DNA of 64,000 nucleotides from assembly GCF_003334385.1 (NCBI RefSeq), contig NZ_QOWN01000001.1; one strand, given 5' to 3'. This document shows positions 35,765 through 60,406 of the stretch, one piece after another; positions within the stretch are counted from its first letter, which is position 1; each line of letters starts with the position of its first letter. Position numbers and translations under genes: made by a program. The notes beneath the pieces were generated by a model. That model saw nothing but the letters and a program-made list of their open reading frames with translations, was not told the origin of the DNA and searched no databases. The DNA comes from Escherichia coli (GTDB lineage Bacteria; Pseudomonadota; Gammaproteobacteria; Enterobacterales; Enterobacteriaceae).

Positions 35765-36067
35765 AACTGTAACCTTCGAATTATGGAGTCAGAGACAATC
35801 TCAGACACGAATGTCTGTAATCATACCATCACATCCGAATCCCTTCAGCCCTTTACATAGAGGTGCAAGGATGCTAATTGCAACAAACTAGTTTGGGTTT
35901 TAGCTAGTCCTTCATGGCGGATGTTGGTTTTGCATGTGAATAGTGCTTTAGTATCAATATTCCGATGTATGATAAATAACGGAAGCATTTGAATGGATAA
36001 TATACAGTATACATTCTATTAATATTTATGATATAATTCTTTTTTTATATTAATGGTCTTATTAGTA

Positions 36068-55328: not shown

Positions 55329-55355
55329 AGTATTAACCTTCATCAATGTTTTTAC

Positions 55356-55555
55356 CCGAGAGGGCTGGGGTGAGGCTTTTCCCTCACCCAAACCCTCTCC
55401 GTGAGGAGAGGGGCAGCGCCGGATGCGGCGTAAGCGCCTTATCCGGCCTACAAGAACGTGCAAATTCAACAAATTGTGATGCATCCTGTAGGCCTGATAA
55501 GCGTAGCGCATCAGGCAATTAACCCCACCTTCTCCATGTGGAGAGGGTGGGATTG
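55356..55555. repeat. BIME/REP cluster plus GC-rich palindromic units in the mtlA-mtlD intergenic region
   Basis: Two inverted REP units (GCCGGATGCGGCGTAAGCGCCTTATCCGGCCTACA at 55418-55452; TGTAGGCCTGATAAGCGTAGCGCATCAGGCA at 55494-55516) flanked by CCCTCTCCGTGAGGAGAGGG and CCACCTTCTCCATGTGGAGAGGGTGG palindromes. Confidence 0.7.
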
Positions 55556-55557
55556 GA

Positions 55558-57471
55558 TTACTTACGACCTGCCAGCAGTTCCAGCACTTCATCCACGCTG
55601 GTGGTGTGTGCCAGACGCTCGATGACGGACTCATCATCCAGTGCATTGGTCAGGCTGGTGATAACCTGAATGTGCTCGTTGTTACGGGCAGCAATACCAA
55701 TCACCAGACGGGCAATGTCATCTTCTTCTTCACCGAAGCGCACGCCTTCCGGGTACTGGCAGAACACGACGCCCGTTTTCAGTACGCGATCTTTCGCTTC
55801 AACCGTACCGTGTGGCACCGCGATAGACTCACCCAGATAAGTCGGGGTCAGTTTTTCACGATCCAGCATCGCCTGAACGTATTCCGGCTCAACGTAACCG
55901 CCTTTCACCAGCTGCTCGCCAGCAAAACGAATCGCTTCTTCTTTGGTTGCCGCTTTGCGACCGAGGAAGATGTTCTCCGCGCCTAGCTTGAACAGGTTAG
56001 CACTGGAATCGTCAAAGCTGTCTTTCAGGCTGTCTTTTACTTTCTCTTCGTTTGCCGTGTGGCGTTGGGCAGCAACCAGACGTTCGGTCAGGCTGGTGTA
56101 CAGGCCGCTGTCGAGGAAGTTGGTCAGCGAAATATGCTGTGCCTGCGGAACCTGGCGCATAGCGCGTTCGGTCAGGTCACGGTGAGTGATGACGAGGTCC
56201 ACATCTGGCGGCAGGTTGTTGATCGCGCTGTTAGTAACAGAAATCTGCGACAGACCTGCATCCTGAATTTTCTTACGCAGAACGCCTGCGCCCATCGCAC
56301 TGGAACCCATACCGGCGTCACAGGCAACGATGATTTTACGTACGTGGCTCAGGTCGTTAGTCACATCGCCAGCAGACAGCGGAGATGCGCCTTTAGACTC
56401 AGCTTTCATGTCCTGCATACGACGAGTTGCTGCTTCAATATCATCTTCTTCTTTCACTTTGCTGGTTTTCAGCAAAATAGCAGAGACAACGAAGGAGACA
56501 GCCATCGCCGCACACACACCCGCGATGTTAGCGAAGTAAGCACCTTTTGGTGTCATCGCCAGTACAGCAAGGATAGAACCCGGAGACGCCGGAGAAACCA
56601 GACCACCGCCCAGGATAGTCAGCGTGAACACGCCAGTCATACCGCCGAGGATGACTGCGAGGATCAGACGCGGATTCATCAGCACATACGGGAAGTAGAT
56701 TTCGTGGATACCCCCCAGGAAGTGGATGATTGCCGCACCGCCCGCAGACTGTTTAGCGCTACCACGACCAAAGAACATGTACGCCAGCAGCACGCCCATA
56801 CCTGGACCTGGGTTAGCTTCAATCAGGAAGAAGATTGATTTACCCAGTTCATGGGACTGCTGAATACCCAGCGGCGAGAAGATACCGTGGTTAATGGCGT
56901 TGTTGAGGAACAGGATTTTCGCCGGTTCAACAAAGATAGACGCCAGCGGCAGCATGTCATGGACAACCATGAAGTTAACGCCCGCAGCCAGCATTTTGGA
57001 CAGGGCTTCAACAATCGGGCCAATGCCGAGGAATGCCAGAATAGCGAGGATCATCCCGATGATGCCTGCGGAGAAGTTATTCACCAGCATCTCAAAACCG
57101 GATTTGATCTTACCGTCTACCCAGCGGTCGAAGTGCTTAATGCACCAGCCGCCCAGCGGACCTGCAATCATAGAACCGAGGAACATCGGCATGTCTGCGC
57201 CGACGATAACGCCCATGGTGGTGATGGCACCGACTACGCCGCCACGTTCGCCGCCTACCAGCTTACCACCGGTATAACCGATCAGCAGCGGCAGGAGATA
57301 AGTGATCATCGGCCCGACCAGCTTCGCCAGCGTCTCGTTCGGTAACCACCCTGTTGGAATAAATAACGCGGTGATGATACCCCACGCGATAAACGCGCCG
57401 ATATTTGGCATCACCATGTTGCTGAGGAAACGACCAAAGCTTTGCACTTTGATCTTAATATCGGATGACAT
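55558..57471 (-). CDS. mtlA: PTS mannitol-specific EIICBA component
   Basis: 637-aa ORF recognised as MtlA. Confidence 0.96.
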
Positions 57472-57614
57472 AAAAACACCCCTTCTTATGTTTGCTGTCG
57501 CGCAGGCTGGAAGCCCGAGGTTTTTTGTTAATGTGGCGGCAGAGGTAGCCGGACCTTGTAGATACTGCGAAATCTGGCACTGAATCGGTTAACTGTCCAG
57601 TCGACGGCCTTTTG

Positions 57615-57791
57615 TGTGATATCAATCACATAAATATAGGGGGTAGAGAGGTAATTGACGTGACGTTCATCACAAAACGCTTGTGTAAAAAAGCAACAAG
57701 GCGGCGATTTTCGCTAAAAATGGCATTTAAATGTGAGTAGTGTCACATTTTTGTTTTGATGGTTTGTTGAATCTTTGTGATCTGAATCACA
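57615..57791. promoter_or_regulatory. Cluster of CRP-type palindromes in the long mtlA upstream region
   Basis: TGTGA-N6-TCACA matches at 57615-57630 (perfect), 57659-57674 (CGTGA...TCACA), 57732-57747 and 57776-57791. Confidence 0.65.
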
Positions 57792-58007
57792 AGATATTTT
57801 CTTACGGCGTTCACCTGATGTGATCTACAGCATGTTATGCCTTCGTCATACAATCGTTATGTAACTAAGCAACTCATCACCTCTAAAAATTATTCTTTGG
57901 TGTTATGGCGAGAATCGCGAACCCGGATTATTGTCAAAATATCAGCCTGACTCCCTTCTGGCTGCCAGCCCAAAAACAACACTGATAAACGTGAATCCGA
58001 GGCAGAT

Positions 58008-58370
58008 ATGTTTCTAAACTATTTCGCGTTGGGAGTGCTGATCTTCGTCTTTCTGGTGATTTTTTATGGAATCATCGCGATACATGACATCCCTTATCTG
58101 ATTGCCAAAAAGCGCAACCATCCCCATGCCGACGCTATTCATACGGCGGGCTGGGTGAGCCTGTTTACTCTGCATGTTATCTGGCCGTTTCTGTGGATCT
58201 GGGCGACGCTCTATCAACCGGAGCGTGGCTGGGGTATGCAGTCACATGTTGCGTCGCAGGAGAAAGCGACTGACCCGGAAATCGCCGCACTTTCTGACCG
58301 AATTTCCCGGCTGGAGCATCAACTCGCCGCCGAGAAAAAGACTGACTATTCCACGTTCCCGGAGATCTAA
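58008..58370 (+). CDS. yibI: Small inner membrane protein YibI
   Basis: 120-aa ORF with two hydrophobic segments. Confidence 0.85.
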
Positions 58371-58372
58371 TT

Positions 58373-59509
58373 ATGGATCTATTGATTGTTTTAACTTACG
58401 TGGCGCTGGCGTGGGCGGTCTTTAAAATCTTCCGCATTCCGGTAAATCAGTGGACGCTGGCGACGGCGGCGCTGGGAGGCGTGTTTCTGGTGAGTGGTTT
58501 GATTTTGTTGATGAACTACAACCACCCTTACACTTTTACCGCGCAAAAGGCAGTGATAGCGATCCCTATCACGCCACAGGTGACGGGAATTGTTACTGAA
58601 GTCACTGACAAGAATAATCAGCTTATTCAAAAGGGCGAGGTGCTTTTTAAGCTCGACCCGGTTCGTTACCAGGCGCGAGTTGACAGACTTCAGGCTGACC
58701 TGATGACGGCGACGCATAATATAAAGACGCTGCGTGCGCAGCTCACTGAAGCGCAGGCCAACACCACCCAGGTTTCAGCGGAGCGCGACCGTCTGTTTAA
58801 AAATTATCAACGTTACTTGAAAGGCAGCCAGGCGGCGGTGAATCCGTTCTCGGAACGTGACATCGACGATGCGCGGCAAAATTTCCTCGCGCAGGATGCG
58901 CTGGTGAAAGGCTCGGTGGCGGAGCAGGCGCAGATCCAGAGCCAGCTCGACAGTATGGTTAACGGCGAGCAATCGCAGATTGTGAGCTTAAGAGCGCAAC
59001 TTACTGAAGCAAAATATAACCTTGAGCAGACTGTCATTCGCGCGCCGAGCAATGGCTACGTTACTCAGGTACTGATCCGCCCAGGTACATACGCAGCTGC
59101 CTTGCCGCTGCGTCCGGTGATGGTCTTCATCCCCGAGCAAAAACGGCAAATTGTCGCCCAATTTCGGCAAAACTCGCTGTTACGTCTGAAACCCGGCGAT
59201 GATGCGGAAGTGGTGTTTAACGCGCTACCTGGGCAGGTGTTTCACGGCAAACTGACTAGTATTTTACCTGTCGTGCCAGGCGGTTCTTATCAGGCGCAGG
59301 GGGTATTGCAATCATTAACGGTCGTGCCCGGCACGGACGGTGTGCTGGGAACCATTGAACTGGACCCTAACGATGATATCGATGCCTTACCCGACGGCAT
59401 CTACGCCCAGGTGGCGGTTTACTCCGACCATTTCAGCCATGTTTCGGTGATGCGGAAAGTGCTGCTAAGAATGACCAGCTGGATGCATTATCTTTATTTG
59501 GATCATTGA
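58373..59509 (+). CDS. yibH: HlyD-family membrane fusion protein YibH
   Basis: 378-aa ORF with N-terminal TM segment and coiled-coil; start 3 bp after yibI stop. Confidence 0.88.
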
Positions 59510-59968
59510 GGGGGAGGGGGGAGATTATGGAACTTTGCTCCTTGTAAGGACTAATTATTTTTGCATATTACTTCATTAGCTGCGATGATTTTTCTTTAAT
59601 ATTCATTATGTTAATAAGTTCTGGATGAGTGTGCTCTCATTGGATTTTTTATCCGTCTTGTTCTGCCGCAGGATGAGACTATACATCGTCGAGATCGCAA
59701 TGATGATATGAGTTGTTCCTCCTGCGACGGCTCTAATCAAAAAAGAGCAGGAGTGCTTTTCCATCTATTGCGATGATGGCTTTATTATCTGAAGGATGAC
59801 AGTCACATTTAAAAAATATTTAATCTATAGATCACAATGTAGGGTCATGGAATATATGTATACAACTATTTTCTTCTTCACTTTTAATTATCGTATTCAT
59901 TATAAAACTAAGTTAAAAAAACTCCTGGAGAGTGAGTTATTAATATATTTTTAAATAAAATTAAGTTA

Positions 59969-60406
59969 TCATTCATCGATGCACTTTATAGAATCATCAA
60001 TGGCCATAATAGTACTATTAACTCTCAATTTTATATTTTTATCATCACTACAAATATTAACTGAATTTATATCAATGATTTTTTTATTCTTATCTTTTAT
60101 TTTATTTACTGTTTCAATGCAATCAGCGGCAAGTTGGAGTGGATTTAGATTTTTCAGATATGGTCTTATGATCTTTCCCTTACTTAATAAATAGCATGTA
60201 TAGGATTCGGAAAGTCCAGCATCTATTTTGTACCTCATTATATTAGATAAGGATGTGAGAAATTCCTTGTTATCATTCGCAGCCATATATGCCAGTCCGA
60301 GTTCAGCCTCTGCGGCCTTACAGGCAAAATAGCTTAGTGAACACGCTTTTCGTCCCTCTTTAGTACTGGCTGATATTAGTGCCCATAATATTGCTTTGTC
60401 TGCCAA
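59969..60406 (-). CDS. Hypothetical protein, candidate immunity partner of the decayed third Rhs C-terminal cassette
   Basis: 145-aa frame with TTG start and no in-frame ATG upstream; AT-rich; sits directly downstream of the decayed toxin remnant. Confidence 0.4.
   Translation of the reverse strand: MADKAILWALISASTKEGRKACSLSYFACKAAEAELGLAYMAANDNKEFLTSLSNIMRYKIDAGLSESYTCYLLSKGKIIRPYLKNLNPLQLAADCIETVNKIKDKNKKIIDINSVNICSDDKNIKLRVNSTIMAIDDSIKCIDE

What the first reader, a model, noticed from the sequence alone, without database searches (positions are those of the whole stretch)
58008..59509. yibI-yibH: small membrane protein plus HlyD-like fusion protein with no adjacent transporter
yibH has the HlyD/membrane-fusion architecture (N-terminal TM segment, coiled-coil, beta-rich C-terminus) and is translationally coupled to the two-TM protein YibI, but no ABC, MFS or RND pump or TolC-like gene is adjacent. 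The pair lies between the mtl promoter and the Rhs toxin array. It could be an incomplete efflux module that borrows a distant transporter, or a non-efflux envelope function.
Basis: inference. Interest (0 to 1): 0.35.

Follow-up and report, generated by a model that had tools for sequence, protein, structure and literature searches.

The report
Orphan adaptor pair yibI–yibH
yibI–yibH is a real, strongly conserved two-gene unit of E. coli, made of an EmrA-like periplasmic adaptor and its obligate small membrane partner (DUF3302); it always travels without a pump gene, so it looks like a complete but uncharacterised envelope module rather than a broken efflux operon.

Summary
Window 58008-58370 is yibI (120 aa, DUF3302) and 58373-59509 is yibH (378 aa). 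They are 2 nt apart, and yibH has its own Shine-Dalgarno inside yibI. Flanking genes are divergent (mtlA) or on the other strand (Rhs/immunity debris), and none is a pump or TolC-like gene.

YibH has the membrane-fusion-protein fold. Its closest solved relative is EmrA in EmrAB-TolC. It differs in having two N-terminal membrane helices and a very conserved C-terminal helix.

The pair is not a decayed operon:
- It is in 5407 of 5426 complete E. coli genomes.
- dN/dS is 0.02-0.07.
- A 77%-identical paralogous pair, yiaW-yiaV, lies about 14 kb away.
- In about 180 loci from genomes and metagenomes, a DUF3302 gene is followed by this type of adaptor in unrelated neighbourhoods.

No transporter is conserved next to the long-hairpin (YibH) class. 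A short-hairpin sister class repeatedly sits in operons with an outer-membrane factor and a Na+/H+-exchanger-family antiporter.

DUF3302 carries a near-invariant R-x-H-P-H-x-D-A-I-H motif and a mid-membrane histidine.

Best reading (about 0.4): a self-contained adaptor module, probably TolC-docking, with YibI as an ion-coupled inner-membrane partner. A borrowed transporter remains a live rival. Function is untested.

The parts
57824..57854 (+). Sigma-70-like promoter candidate TCTACA-19-TACAAT facing yibI, 153 nt upstream of its ATG
   Evidence: It is a unique match in the window. The same hexamer pair is listed for the yibI/mtlA spacer in the genomic-SELEX promoter table of PMC3946193, where it sits in the mtlA column, but on the sequence it points towards yibI. 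The generic promoter scan did not pick it up. Low confidence.
57999..58002 (+). Shine-Dalgarno (GAGG) of yibI
   Evidence: Read directly from the sequence; 5-nt spacer to the ATG.
58008..58370 (+). yibI CDS: 120-aa DUF3302 inner-membrane protein
   Evidence: ORF; Pfam PF11742 at 3e-41; RefSeq annotation; dN/dS 0.04-0.07.
58020..58082 (+). YibI transmembrane helix 1 (about aa 5-25)
   Evidence: Hydropathy peak at residues 7-25; AF2 helix 2-35.
58083..58142 (+). YibI conserved ionisable loop, aa 26-45: [14 protein letters not shown]-x-DAIH
   Evidence: Conservation in 150 family representatives at 50% identity: H26 88%, D27 90%, P29 96%, R36 97%, H38 97%, P39 99%, H40 87%, D42 91%, H45 86%. Invariant columns are listed.
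58146..58208 (+). YibI transmembrane helix 2 (about aa 47-67), with W49, S51, H56, W59, P60, W63 and W65
   Evidence: AF2 helix 41-67. Conservation: W49 95%, S51 96%, H56 88%, W59 95%, P60 95%, W65 90%.
58275..58343 (+). YibI C-terminal amphipathic, coiled-coil-like helix (aa 90-112) after a variable linker
   Evidence: AF2 helix 90-112. The consensus L..R...LE..L is kept although the tail is otherwise variable. The only PDB sequence hits here are designed coiled coils.
58361..58364 (+). Shine-Dalgarno (GGAG) of yibH, inside the last codons of yibI
   Evidence: Read from the sequence. Gaps of -4 to +5 nt between the two genes are the rule in homologous loci.
58373..59509 (+). yibH CDS: 378-aa EmrA-like membrane-fusion (periplasmic adaptor) protein
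   Evidence: ORF; Pfam; NCBIfam; PDB sequence search; AF2 model; Foldseek; dN/dS 0.02-0.03.
58376..58519 (+). YibH N-terminal membrane hairpin: helix aa 2-20, short K/R loop (K18, R21), helix aa about 27-49
   Evidence: Hydropathy and charges; AF2 helices. The N-terminus M-D/E-LL..L.Y is conserved even in distant relatives.
58661..59026 (+). YibH alpha-helical hairpin (aa 97-218; arms of about 56 residues, about 85 A)
   Evidence: AF2 helices 97-152, 161-196 and 202-218 at pLDDT 90-97. The alignment to EmrA shows almost no length difference: YibH 54-285 against EmrA 52-279. R147 near the tip is 100% conserved.
59435..59485 (+). YibH conserved C-terminal helix (aa 355-371, [10 protein letters not shown]...)
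   Evidence: AF2 helix. Residues 353-378, which contain it, are the most conserved segment of the protein (88% mean; R361, R366 and M367 at 100%). Invariant R361 and W370 in the paired alignment.
59510..59524 (.). End of the conserved block, one base after the yibH stop, with a G-rich tract GGGGGAGGGGGGAG; the variable Rhs/immunity island starts here
   Evidence: In several E. coli genomes the match to the query ends at query base 1811, which is window 59510 (H9-H11). In Citrobacter, Enterobacter and Klebsiella, yibF-selAB follow yibH directly. Sequence.

Best explanation
yibI-yibH is a complete two-gene envelope module, not a remnant.

YibH is an EmrA-type periplasmic adaptor. It has a two-helix membrane anchor, a beta-barrel, a lipoyl domain, an alpha-hairpin of about 85 A, no membrane-proximal domain, and a conserved C-terminal helix. 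YibI is its dedicated DUF3302 inner-membrane partner, made in step with it from one mRNA.

The most likely working model has inferred steps. The two proteins assemble about 1:1 into an oligomeric ring, hexameric by analogy with EmrA, MacA and AcrA. The membrane base of that ring is built from the YibH and YibI helices. The hairpins reach and dock TolC. YibI's near-invariant His/Asp/Arg loop and its mid-membrane His56 would provide ion (H+ or cation) binding or coupling. In this model YibI takes the place that a pump occupies in classical tripartite systems.

The module is expressed mainly on entry into stationary phase and in urine, and it contributes modestly to envelope protection.

Shown here: gene reality, fold, obligate pairing, absence of a conserved pump, purifying selection, and residue conservation. 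Inferred: physical I-H contact, oligomeric state, TolC docking, ion coupling and substrate.
For: Fold and dimensions.
- Pfam and NCBIfam give MFP hits.
- The AF2 model has pLDDT 80-97 over the YibH periplasmic domains.
- The best solved matches are EmrA chains of EmrAB-TolC, 8zal/8zar (E 1.8e-20, TM 0.67, 315 columns).
- The hairpin length equals EmrA's.
- EmrA-type adaptors lack the MP domain and sit on transporters without periplasmic domains (PMC4446572).

Obligate pairing.
- In the first 81 fetched loci, mostly the genome scan, 86 DUF3302-MFP pairs were found. The only unpaired DUF3302 genes were at contig ends.
- In 124 further loci (120 metagenome, 4 genome look-ups), 96 were paired, 16 had no room downstream, and 2 were unpaired.
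- Gaps are mostly -4 to +5 nt.

No conserved pump.
- Flanks differ completely between yibIH-type, yiaWV-type, Serratia, Yersinia, Pantoea, Shewanella, Vibrio and Marinobacter loci.
- No AaeB-, YccS- or YhfK-like gene lies nearby, apart from one half-size case.
- Only one locus had an emrAB-like operon, and it was convergent.

Three-gene sets with an OMF but no pump exist: L110 I-H-OMF with a 0-nt gap, and L003 OMF-I-H. This argues that such adaptors do dock an OMF.

Selection and spread.
- The pair is in 5407 of 5426 E. coli genomes.
- dN/dS is 0.02-0.07.
- The paralogous pair yiaWV is 77% / 75% identical.
- DUF3302 forms 819 clusters at 50% identity.

Functional residues.
- R36, H38, P39, D42, W49, S51, W59 and P60 are at least 91% conserved family-wide, and H26, H40, H45 and H56 are 86-88% conserved.
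- The YibH membrane region and C-terminal helix are more conserved than its hairpin.

Physiology, all weak.
- The Keio yibH deletion is among the 15 most azithromycin-sensitive transporter knockouts, alongside tolQ, tolR, acrB and mdtN (PMC9405208).
- The yibI promoter is urine-induced in UPEC, and a yibI deletion has a competitive index of 0.33 in urine (PMC5404293).
- yibH and yiaW are induced at the transition to stationary phase in O157 (PMC2241611).
Against: There is no direct evidence that YibI and YibH touch. The AF2 run returns no coordinates or PAE, and pTM is only 0.54. No natural fusion protein was found.

The canonical TolC-binding RLS motif (RxxxLxxxxxxS) is absent at the hairpin tip. 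Only the Arg is kept.

In a sister clade the same kind of pair sits in operons with a real transporter gene: a Na_H_Exchanger in at least five divergent loci, and a FUSC-like gene in one. This favours the view that DUF3302 is an accessory subunit and that a pump is needed.

yibH is dispensable enough to serve as a neutral integration site (PMC5852967). The phenotypes come from single high-throughput screens. A 24-helix ring with no transporter has no precedent among solved MFP systems.
Confidence: 0.4

Rival explanations
1. Borrowed transporter. YibI-YibH is an adaptor sub-complex that serves an unlinked inner-membrane transporter. YibI would be an accessory subunit, analogous in position to AaeX in aaeXAB. 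Candidates in E. coli are the orphan FUSC/ArAE-like proteins YccS and YhfK, a CPA1 antiporter, or a DHA2 MFS pump.
For: In the short-hairpin sister class, a Na_H_Exchanger-family gene (Pfam PF00999, 3e-37) is in the same operon or next door in L093/L210, L102, L107, L163/L209 and L172. Gene orders differ between these loci and their I+H identity is only 35-71%. Ten of 298 genes within three positions of a pair are such antiporters, against 0 of 137 farther away.

L115 has a half-size YccS/AaeB-like gene directly downstream.

Among the best NCBIfam matches of YibH are MdtN and AaeA, the adaptors of PET/ArAE pumps.

E. coli K-12 has two ArAE-like 'putative transporters', YccS and YhfK, with no adaptor gene beside them. 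All classical MFPs need a pump.
Against: No transporter is conserved next to any of the roughly 130 long-hairpin (YibH-class) pairs examined.

Pairs with an OMF but no pump gene exist (L110, L003).

The strong conservation of ionisable residues in DUF3302 is more than expected of a passive accessory protein.

AaeX is not homologous to YibI (hhalign probability 0.1).

Co-occurrence with YccS, YhfK or CPA1 across genomes could not be tested.
Confidence: 0.3
2. Non-efflux envelope role. The pair uses the adaptor fold for something other than export through TolC. Examples are a stationary-phase membrane-stabilising or periplasm-spanning scaffold, or a sensor of cytoplasmic metal or pH through the YibI loop.
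For: The canonical RLS TolC-binding motif is missing.

The hairpin is the least conserved part of YibH.

Induction is in stationary phase and urine rather than by drugs.

Recurrent neighbours in non-syntenic Enterobacterales loci are envelope and stress genes: a DUF3313 lipoprotein, a DUF1471 YahO-like protein, PqiB, and the LysR regulator YiaU/LpsR.

A yiaW deletion is reported to raise Ca2+-mediated transformation efficiency (cited in PMC12844161).
Against: The hairpin length matches that of TolC-docking EmrA.

OMF genes are adjacent in five relatives.

The invariant Arg147 lies near the tip.

The azithromycin hypersensitivity groups with tolQ/R and acrB.
Confidence: 0.25
3. Decaying or silent remnant of a once complete efflux operon, with no present function.
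For: There is no pump. yibH deletion is tolerated and the locus is used as a neutral integration site. It lies beside a region of pseudogenes and Rhs debris.
Against: It is core in E. coli. dN/dS is 0.02-0.07. Both reading frames are intact, and the length of 378 aa is preserved from Escherichia to Yersinia. The same two-gene organisation is present across Gammaproteobacteria and beyond. There is evidence of regulated expression.
Confidence: 0.03

Closest known systems
EmrAB-TolC (MFS-type tripartite pump; adaptor EmrA, PDB 8zal/8zar, 4tko)
   Same: It is the best structural and sequence relative of YibH. It has the same domain set of membrane anchor, beta-barrel, lipoyl domain and long hairpin, with no membrane-proximal domain, and nearly identical hairpin length. 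As with emrAB, no OMF gene is adjacent in E. coli.
   Different: YibH scores 113 bits against the EmrA/EmrK model, whose cut-off is 391. It has two N-terminal membrane helices instead of one, plus a conserved C-terminal helix. There is no EmrB-like MFS gene. The partner gene is the 120-aa DUF3302 protein.
AaeXAB (aromatic carboxylic acid efflux; small protein AaeX + adaptor AaeA + PET/ArAE pump AaeB)
   Same: The gene order begins the same way: a small membrane protein gene immediately upstream of an EmrA/AaeA-like adaptor gene. YibH and AaeA are 25% identical (E 2e-16). A LysR regulator lies nearby in the paralogous yiaWV locus, as aaeR does for aaeXAB.
   Different: There is no AaeB-like gene. 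AaeX (DUF1656) and YibI (DUF3302) are not detectably homologous. The AaeA hairpin is about 50 residues shorter in total and resembles the short class.
YiaW-YiaV of E. coli (TCDB 8.A.1.1.4, uncharacterised)
   Same: It is a true paralogous pair about 14 kb away. YiaV is 378 aa and 77% identical to YibH; YiaW is 75% identical to YibI. Organisation is the same, and it is likewise without a pump.
   Different: Its neighbours differ (aldB, yiaU/LpsR, yiaT). YiaW has a shorter C-terminal tail (107 aa). Its own function is equally unknown, so it offers no functional transfer.
OMF-DUF3302-MFP-Na_H_Exchanger operons in metagenomes (L209, L210, L102, L107, L172)
   Same: They have the same DUF3302 motif set and the same adaptor N- and C-terminal signatures. 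They show that this pair can be part of a genetically complete envelope-spanning system.
   Different: The adaptor hairpin is exactly 62 residues shorter. OMF and antiporter genes are present in these operons and absent in E. coli. The organisms are unknown and nothing has been tested.

Membership tests
Membrane fusion protein / periplasmic adaptor family (HlyD, TCDB 8.A.1) | Lipoyl + beta-barrel + alpha-helical hairpin fold | tested here: met
   Pfam PF00529 at 4e-15, HlyD_D23 at 5e-9 and Biotin_lipoyl_2 at 3e-4. AF2 pLDDT is 80-97 over these domains. Foldseek versus PDB gives 72 hits at E<=1e-3; all of the top 50 listed are adaptors, with EmrA on top.
Membrane fusion protein / periplasmic adaptor family (HlyD, TCDB 8.A.1) | Inner-membrane anchoring (N-terminal TM helix or lipid) | tested here: met
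   There are two hydrophobic helices, at residues 2-20 and 29-47, with a K18/R21 loop. There is no lipobox. Having two helices is atypical.
Membrane fusion protein / periplasmic adaptor family (HlyD, TCDB 8.A.1) | Encoded with its inner-membrane transporter (RND, ABC, MFS or PET) | tested here: not met
   None lies within about 9 kb in E. coli. None is conserved in about 130 long-class loci.
Membrane fusion protein / periplasmic adaptor family (HlyD, TCDB 8.A.1) | RLS/RLT motif (RxxxLxxxxxxS/T) at the hairpin tip for TolC binding | tested here: not met
   There is no match to the motif anywhere in YibH. RxxxL occurs only at residues 102 and 168, away from the tip (motif as defined in PMC3391258). 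R147 near the tip is 100% conserved and aligns with the first Arg of EmrA's RRVPLG.
Membrane fusion protein / periplasmic adaptor family (HlyD, TCDB 8.A.1) | Works with an outer-membrane factor | not testable with these tools
   No OMF gene is adjacent in E. coli, which is also true of acrAB, emrAB and macAB, all of which use TolC. OMF genes are adjacent to the short-class pairs L003, L093/L210, L102, L110 and L163/L209.
EmrA/EmrK subfamily (TIGR00998) and EmrA equivalog (NF011715) | Score above the curated cut-off | tested here: not met
   113.5 bits against a cut-off of 390.8, and 57.1 against 563.
AaeXAB-type system | AaeA equivalog score; AaeX homologue; AaeB-like pump adjacent | tested here: not met
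   AaeA model 75.1 bits against a cut-off of 400. hhalign of DUF3302 against AaeX gives probability 0.1. No AaeB-like ORF is found.
RND_mfp generic subfamily (TIGR01730) | Score above the curated cut-off | tested here: met
   99.9 bits against a cut-off of 94.9, in two stretches. This is marginal and says only 'adaptor'.
DUF3302 (PF11742) | Full-length match to the family model | tested here: met
   3.3e-41, model positions 1-76 of 77. The family is defined by sequence only and no function is attached to it.

The most novel reading that the evidence does not exclude
DUF3302 plus its dedicated adaptor define a further class of MFP/OMF envelope system. In this class a 2-TM, His/Asp-rich small protein, together with the adaptor's own membrane hairpin, forms an ion-conducting or ion-coupled inner-membrane base with no classical pump. 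In some lineages this base is combined with a Na+/H+-exchanger-family antiporter, which would be a previously undescribed kind of inner-membrane partner for tripartite systems. E. coli would carry two copies, yibIH and yiaWV.
Probability: 0.2. Interest if true: 0.7.

Novelty: new variant of a known kind. Interest (0 to 1): 0.42.

Why it matters
YibH and YiaV are adaptors of E. coli K-12 that have no pump gene beside them and are still listed as uncharacterised (PMC11551758; PMC10971958). DUF3302 has no function at all attached to it.

This work shows that the adaptor never travels without DUF3302. It shows that the pair is a conserved, selected unit across Proteobacteria, and that relatives sit in operons with an OMF and a cation/proton antiporter. 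That turns a vague 'orphan HlyD' annotation into a defined system.

The results supply concrete experiments: named residues to mutate, candidate partners, and conditions for phenotyping. If the module works without a classical pump, or with a CPA-type antiporter, it would widen the known repertoire of tripartite envelope machines. It could also explain small contributions to macrolide tolerance and fitness in urine.

Tried and rejected
1. Homology between YibI and AaeX, the small protein of aaeXAB: hhalign probability 0.1. Rejected.

2. Solved relatives of YibI: the only hits are designed coiled coils matching the C-terminal helix.

3. Anti-phage defence role, considered because the locus abuts an Rhs array: PADLOC gave nothing for YibI and only coiled-coil noise for YibH.

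4. AaeB-, YccS-, YhfK- or EmrB-like genes near any pair: none, except one half-size FUSC-like gene (L115) and one convergent emrAB-like operon (L074).

5. Natural DUF3302-adaptor fusion proteins as Rosetta-stone evidence: none convincing in AFDB50. One 510-aa 'YiaV' from a dinoflagellate assembly may be a merged gene model.

6. Canonical RLS TolC-binding motif: absent.

7. Generic promoter and terminator scan of 57400-60000: nothing above shuffle expectation near the operon ends.

8. Fused YibI-linker-YibH AF2 model, intended to read the I-H interface: the tool returns no coordinates or PAE, so only fold, secondary structure and pLDDT could be used.

9. The genome-contig scan returned almost only Enterobacterales because hits are ranked by similarity. 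Diversity had to come from a DNA-pattern scan of metagenomes and single look-ups.

10. Inter-protein covariation analysis was considered and not run. The effective number of sequences (about 45 clusters at 80% identity) is too small to separate contact from shared phylogeny.

Full report
WHAT IS THERE

The window is E. coli K-12-type chromosome in reverse orientation. A 2-kb query around the finding is 100% identical to RefSeq chromosomes and occurs in 5407 of 5426 complete E. coli genomes; 5387 of those have at least 80% coverage, and all copies are chromosomal.

The ORFs at 58008-58370 (120 aa) and 58373-59509 (378 aa) are annotated yibI (DUF3302 domain-containing protein) and yibH (HlyD family secretion protein / inner membrane protein YibH). 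The yibI stop codon (58368-58370) is separated from the yibH ATG by two bases. A GGAG sits 8 nt upstream of that ATG, inside yibI, and yibI itself has GAGG 5 nt upstream of its ATG.

mtlA (55558-57471) is divergent. Everything downstream of yibH for several kb is on the other strand and is Rhs/immunity debris: the yibU pseudogene, yibV, the yibW/yibS pseudogenes, yibG and the rhsA C-terminus. No ABC, MFS, RND, PET or OMF gene is within about 9 kb.

ARE THESE REAL, SELECTED GENES

Yes. YibI matches Pfam DUF3302 end to end (3.3e-41). YibH matches PF00529, HlyD_D23 and Biotin_lipoyl_2.

Against Citrobacter and E. whittamii orthologues, dN/dS is 0.035-0.066 for yibI and 0.018-0.034 for yibH.

The length of YibH, 378 aa, is preserved from Escherichia through Klebsiella, Serratia, Yersinia and Pantoea.

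WHAT YIBH IS

NCBIfam places it nearest to EmrA/EmrK (1e-32), MdtN (6e-32) and AaeA (5e-21). All of these are far below the curated cut-offs. Only the generic RND_mfp model is passed, and only just (99.9 against 94.9 bits).

The closest solved sequence is E. coli EmrA (1.7e-11). In that alignment YibH 54-285 spans EmrA 52-279, so the hairpin has practically the same length.

I built a paired alignment of 39 diverse YibI + linker + YibH sequences (A3) and predicted the fused chain. Mean pLDDT is 78, and 80-97 over the YibH periplasmic domains. The model shows these elements:
- Two N-terminal helices (aa about 1-19 and 26-50).
- Beta-strands of the barrel and lipoyl domains.
- A hairpin with arms 97-152 and 161-218, about 56 residues or about 85 A per arm.
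- More beta-structure.
- A low-confidence loop (302-320).
- A C-terminal helix (355-371).

Foldseek against the PDB returns only adaptors. EmrA chains of the EmrAB-TolC cryo-EM structures come first (E 1.8e-20, TM 0.67 on the target, 315 columns), followed by Aquifex EmrA, MacA, AcrA and MexA.

Like EmrA, YibH has no membrane-proximal domain (review PMC4446572).

It differs from EmrA in three ways:
- The second membrane helix. The loop between the two helices carries K18 and R21, so the positive-inside rule puts the N-terminus in the periplasm.
- The C-terminal helix. With the membrane region, it is the most conserved part of the protein: 88% and 82% mean column conservation, against 72% for the hairpin. 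R361, R366 and M367 are invariant in 108 long-class sequences.
- The lack of the canonical RxxxLxxxxxxS TolC-binding motif. Arg147 next to the tip is invariant and aligns with the first Arg of EmrA's tip.

WHAT YIBI IS

It is a two-helix membrane protein with helices at 2-35 and 41-67 in the model. A variable linker follows, then a short amphipathic coiled-coil-like helix (90-112).

It has no solved relative, and it is not homologous to AaeX.

The family is moderately large: 819 clusters at 50% identity, and at least 7988 clusters at 90% identity.

Its conservation pattern is striking. In 150 representatives at 50% identity:
- At least 90% conserved: D27, P29, R36, H38, P39, D42, A43, G48, W49, S51, W59, P60 and W65.
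- 86-88% conserved: H26, H40, H45, H56 and W63.

This gives the motif H-D-I-P ... R-x-H-P-H-x-D-A-I-H-x-x-G-W, running from the end of helix 1 into helix 2. It includes an HxHxDxxH arrangement, an HxxxW (H45-W49), and a histidine (H56) in the middle of helix 2.

The KKR cluster in the loop predicts that the loop is cytoplasmic and that the N-terminus and C-terminal tail are periplasmic. That topology is inference and was not tested.

Such a concentration of conserved ionisable residues in and next to the membrane is what one expects of a proton, cation or metal site rather than of a passive anchor. This too is inference.

THE PAIR IS THE UNIT

E. coli has a second copy. yiaW-yiaV lies about 14 kb away, beyond selAB and aldB. 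YiaV is 378 aa and 77% identical to YibH without a gap, and YiaW is 75% identical to YibI. It also has no pump beside it; its neighbours are the LysR regulator yiaU and the MipA/OmpV-family gene yiaT.

The scan of one genome per species found relatives in 556 of the first 600 candidate stretches. In the first 81 loci fetched, mostly from that scan, I found 86 DUF3302-adaptor pairs. The only DUF3302 genes without a partner were cut by a contig end.

The flanks fall into many unrelated arrangements:
- mtlA | I H | yibF-selAB. This is the ancestral yibIH context. The Rhs island of E. coli is inserted exactly after the yibH stop codon, at window 59510 (H9-H11).
- aldB | I H | yiaU-yiaT.
- Quite different neighbourhoods in Serratia, Yersinia, Pantoea, Rahnella, Budvicia and Alcanivorax.

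Single look-ups in Shewanella, Vibrio and Marinobacter gave the same picture: a DUF3302 gene followed by a 375-381-aa adaptor and surrounded by unrelated genes.

A DNA-pattern scan of metagenomes gave 120 more loci. Together with four genome look-ups these made 124 loci: 96 were paired, 16 had no room downstream, and 2 were unpaired. Gaps between the two genes are mostly -4 to +5 nt.

The adaptor N-terminus (M-D/E-LL..L.Y...) and C-terminal motif (R-K-x-L-L-R-M-x-x-W-x-N-Y) are kept in all of them. This adaptor subtype and DUF3302 therefore belong together. The AFDB search shows the adaptor subtype also in Alpha- and Betaproteobacteria.

IS THERE A CO-VARYING TRANSPORTER

For the YibH-type (long) class, none was found. 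Only 1 of 86 pairs had a convergent emrAB-like operon nearby. There were no AaeB-, YccS- or YhfK-like neighbours.

The metagenomic set splits into two size classes that differ by exactly 62 residues in the hairpin: 124 against 62 residues between the lipoyl anchors.

In the short class an outer-membrane factor gene is adjacent on the same strand in L003, L093, L102, L110 and L163.

A roughly 400-aa Na_H_Exchanger-family protein (Pfam PF00999, 3e-37 over its full length; NCBIfam K+/H+ antiporter models at 1e-36 to 1e-41, below cut-off) is in the same gene string in five loci:
- L093: antiporter-I-H-OMF-HtrA.
- L102: I-H-OMF-antiporter.
- L107 and L172: I-H-antiporter.
- L163: OMF-I-H-antiporter, with gaps of 0, -1 and 2 nt.

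Independent gene calls with precomputed Pfam hits confirm OEP-DUF3302-MFP for L208/L209. They confirm Na_H_Exchanger-DUF3302-MFP-OEP-Trypsin-Ion_trans_2 for L210.

These loci share only 35-71% identity in I+H and have different gene orders. Antiporter hits make up 10 of 298 genes within three positions of a pair, against 0 of 137 farther away. One locus (L115) has a half-size YccS/AaeB-like gene directly downstream.

This sister clade shows two things. These adaptors are used in OMF-containing systems, and they can be genetically coupled to a cation/proton antiporter. That is an arrangement I do not know from any described tripartite system; this statement rests on my own knowledge, not on a search.

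It cuts both ways for E. coli. It supports TolC-type docking. It also shows that a DUF3302-adaptor pair can coexist with a real transporter.

EXPRESSION AND PHENOTYPES (all from the literature, all weak)

- The yibI promoter region was recovered as urine-induced in UPEC UTI89. A yibI deletion had a competitive index of 0.33 in urine and reduced adhesion (PMC5404293).
- yibH and yiaW rise at the transition to stationary phase in O157 Sakai (PMC2241611).
- The Keio yibH mutant is among the 15 most azithromycin-sensitive strains of a transporter-knockout library, alongside tolQ, tolR, acrB and mdtN (PMC9405208).
- yiaV rises 1.5-fold in commensal biofilm challenged by a pathogen (PMC3646849).
- A 1-bp insertion in the mtlA/yibI spacer became fixed in a long-term stationary-phase lineage (PMC7858067).
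- yibH is used as a neutral integration site (PMC5852967).
- The y-ome survey and a transporter survey still list these genes as uncharacterised.
- RNA polymerase holoenzyme binds the yibI/mtlA spacer in genomic SELEX (PMC3946193). The hexamer pair printed there, TCTACA-19-TACAAT, lies at 57824-57854 and faces yibI.

HOW IT MOST LIKELY WORKS

I commit, at about 0.4, to a self-contained module. YibI and YibH are made together and assemble into a ring. The YibH hairpins form an EmrA-like funnel long enough to reach TolC. The membrane base consists of the YibH hairpin helices, its C-terminal helix and the YibI helices. The conserved His/Asp/Arg residues of YibI bind or conduct H+ or a cation.

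Shown: fold, dimensions, obligate pairing, lack of a conserved pump, selection and residue conservation. Inferred: contact, stoichiometry, TolC docking, ion coupling and substrate.

The main rival (about 0.3) is that the pair serves an unlinked transporter. The antiporter operons of the sister clade and the two adaptor-less ArAE-like proteins of E. coli, YccS and YhfK, make that plausible.

A TolC-independent envelope role is at about 0.25. A dead remnant is essentially excluded.

NOVELTY AND VERDICT

The genes and their 'orphan adaptor' status are known. Their function, the obligate DUF3302 partnership, the motif and the OMF/antiporter operons of relatives are, as far as the searchable literature goes, undescribed; searching for DUF3302 returns two incidental mentions.

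I rate it a new variant of a known kind, of moderate interest. It is not surprising to a specialist that YibH is an adaptor. The comparative data do make a long-standing y-gene question directly testable.

Noticed in passing
L209 1-3930; L210 4246-10185; also L102, L107, L172 (metagenome contigs): These are operon-like strings that combine an outer-membrane factor, DUF3302, a short-hairpin adaptor and a roughly 400-aa Na_H_Exchanger-family antiporter. L209 has gaps of 0, -1 and 2 nt. L210 adds an HtrA-like protease and an Ion_trans_2 K+-channel-type gene. A cation/proton antiporter as the partner of an MFP/OMF system is not a described arrangement as far as I know.
   Followed up: partly
window 59510-59524: The block conserved among E. 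coli genomes ends one base after the yibH stop codon, at a G-rich tract GGGGGAGGGGGGAG. In Citrobacter, Enterobacter and Klebsiella, yibF-selAB follow yibH directly. The E. coli Rhs/immunity island therefore appears to be inserted exactly here.
   Followed up: partly
L002 10003-11468 (E. coli, about 14 kb from yibIH): The paralogous pair yiaW-yiaV is 75% / 77% identical to yibI / yibH. YiaV has exactly the same length as YibH. The two pairs probably mask each other in single-gene knockout screens.
   Followed up: yes
window 57824-57854: The hexamer pair TCTACA-19-TACAAT is printed in the genomic-SELEX promoter table (PMC3946193) in the mtlA column, but on the sequence it faces yibI. The pair printed for yibIH (TATACA-18-TATAAT) actually occurs at window 36008-36037, which is another spacer. 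The table row seems to be shifted or mis-assigned.
   Followed up: partly
L211 3731-5884 (yccS) and L212 3792-5894 (yhfK), E. coli K-12: E. coli K-12 has two FUSC/ArAE-like 'putative transporters' with no adaptor gene beside them, and two adaptor pairs (yibIH, yiaWV) with no pump. This is a two-and-two coincidence worth testing by phylogenetic profiling or pull-down.
   Followed up: partly
L051 11626-12294, and L065, L067, L070, L073, L075, L077: A 222-aa DUF3313 lipoprotein is the immediate neighbour of the pair in several non-syntenic Enterobacterales loci. DUF1471 (YahO-like) and PqiB genes also recur nearby. All are envelope or stress proteins of unknown or lipid-transport function.
   Followed up: partly
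hit H1, NZ_CP042350.1 (E. coli RM10410), 4194508-4197857: An IS4-like IS421 element splits the DUF3302 gene (yibI) in this strain, so loss of the pair is tolerated in nature. An IS1 insertion in yiaW also arose in a macrophage-adaptation experiment (PMC5495878).
   Followed up: no
AFDB entry A0A9P1BDX1: A 510-aa 'Inner membrane protein YiaV' from a Cladocopium goreaui (dinoflagellate) assembly is about 130 residues longer than YibH. It may be a merged DUF3302+adaptor gene model from bacterial contamination, or a genuine fusion.
   Followed up: no
window 55330-55560: The longest ORF over mtlD runs about 100 codons upstream of the annotated start, across the mtlA-mtlD spacer. Its translation there looks like repetitive extragenic palindrome sequence. 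This was not examined.
   Followed up: no
L083 8343-9380 (Aeromonas veronii): Downstream of the DUF3302 gene the adaptor is called as two fragments (108 and 159 aa), and my translation contains ambiguous residues. This is either a pseudogene or a poor stretch of assembly.
   Followed up: no
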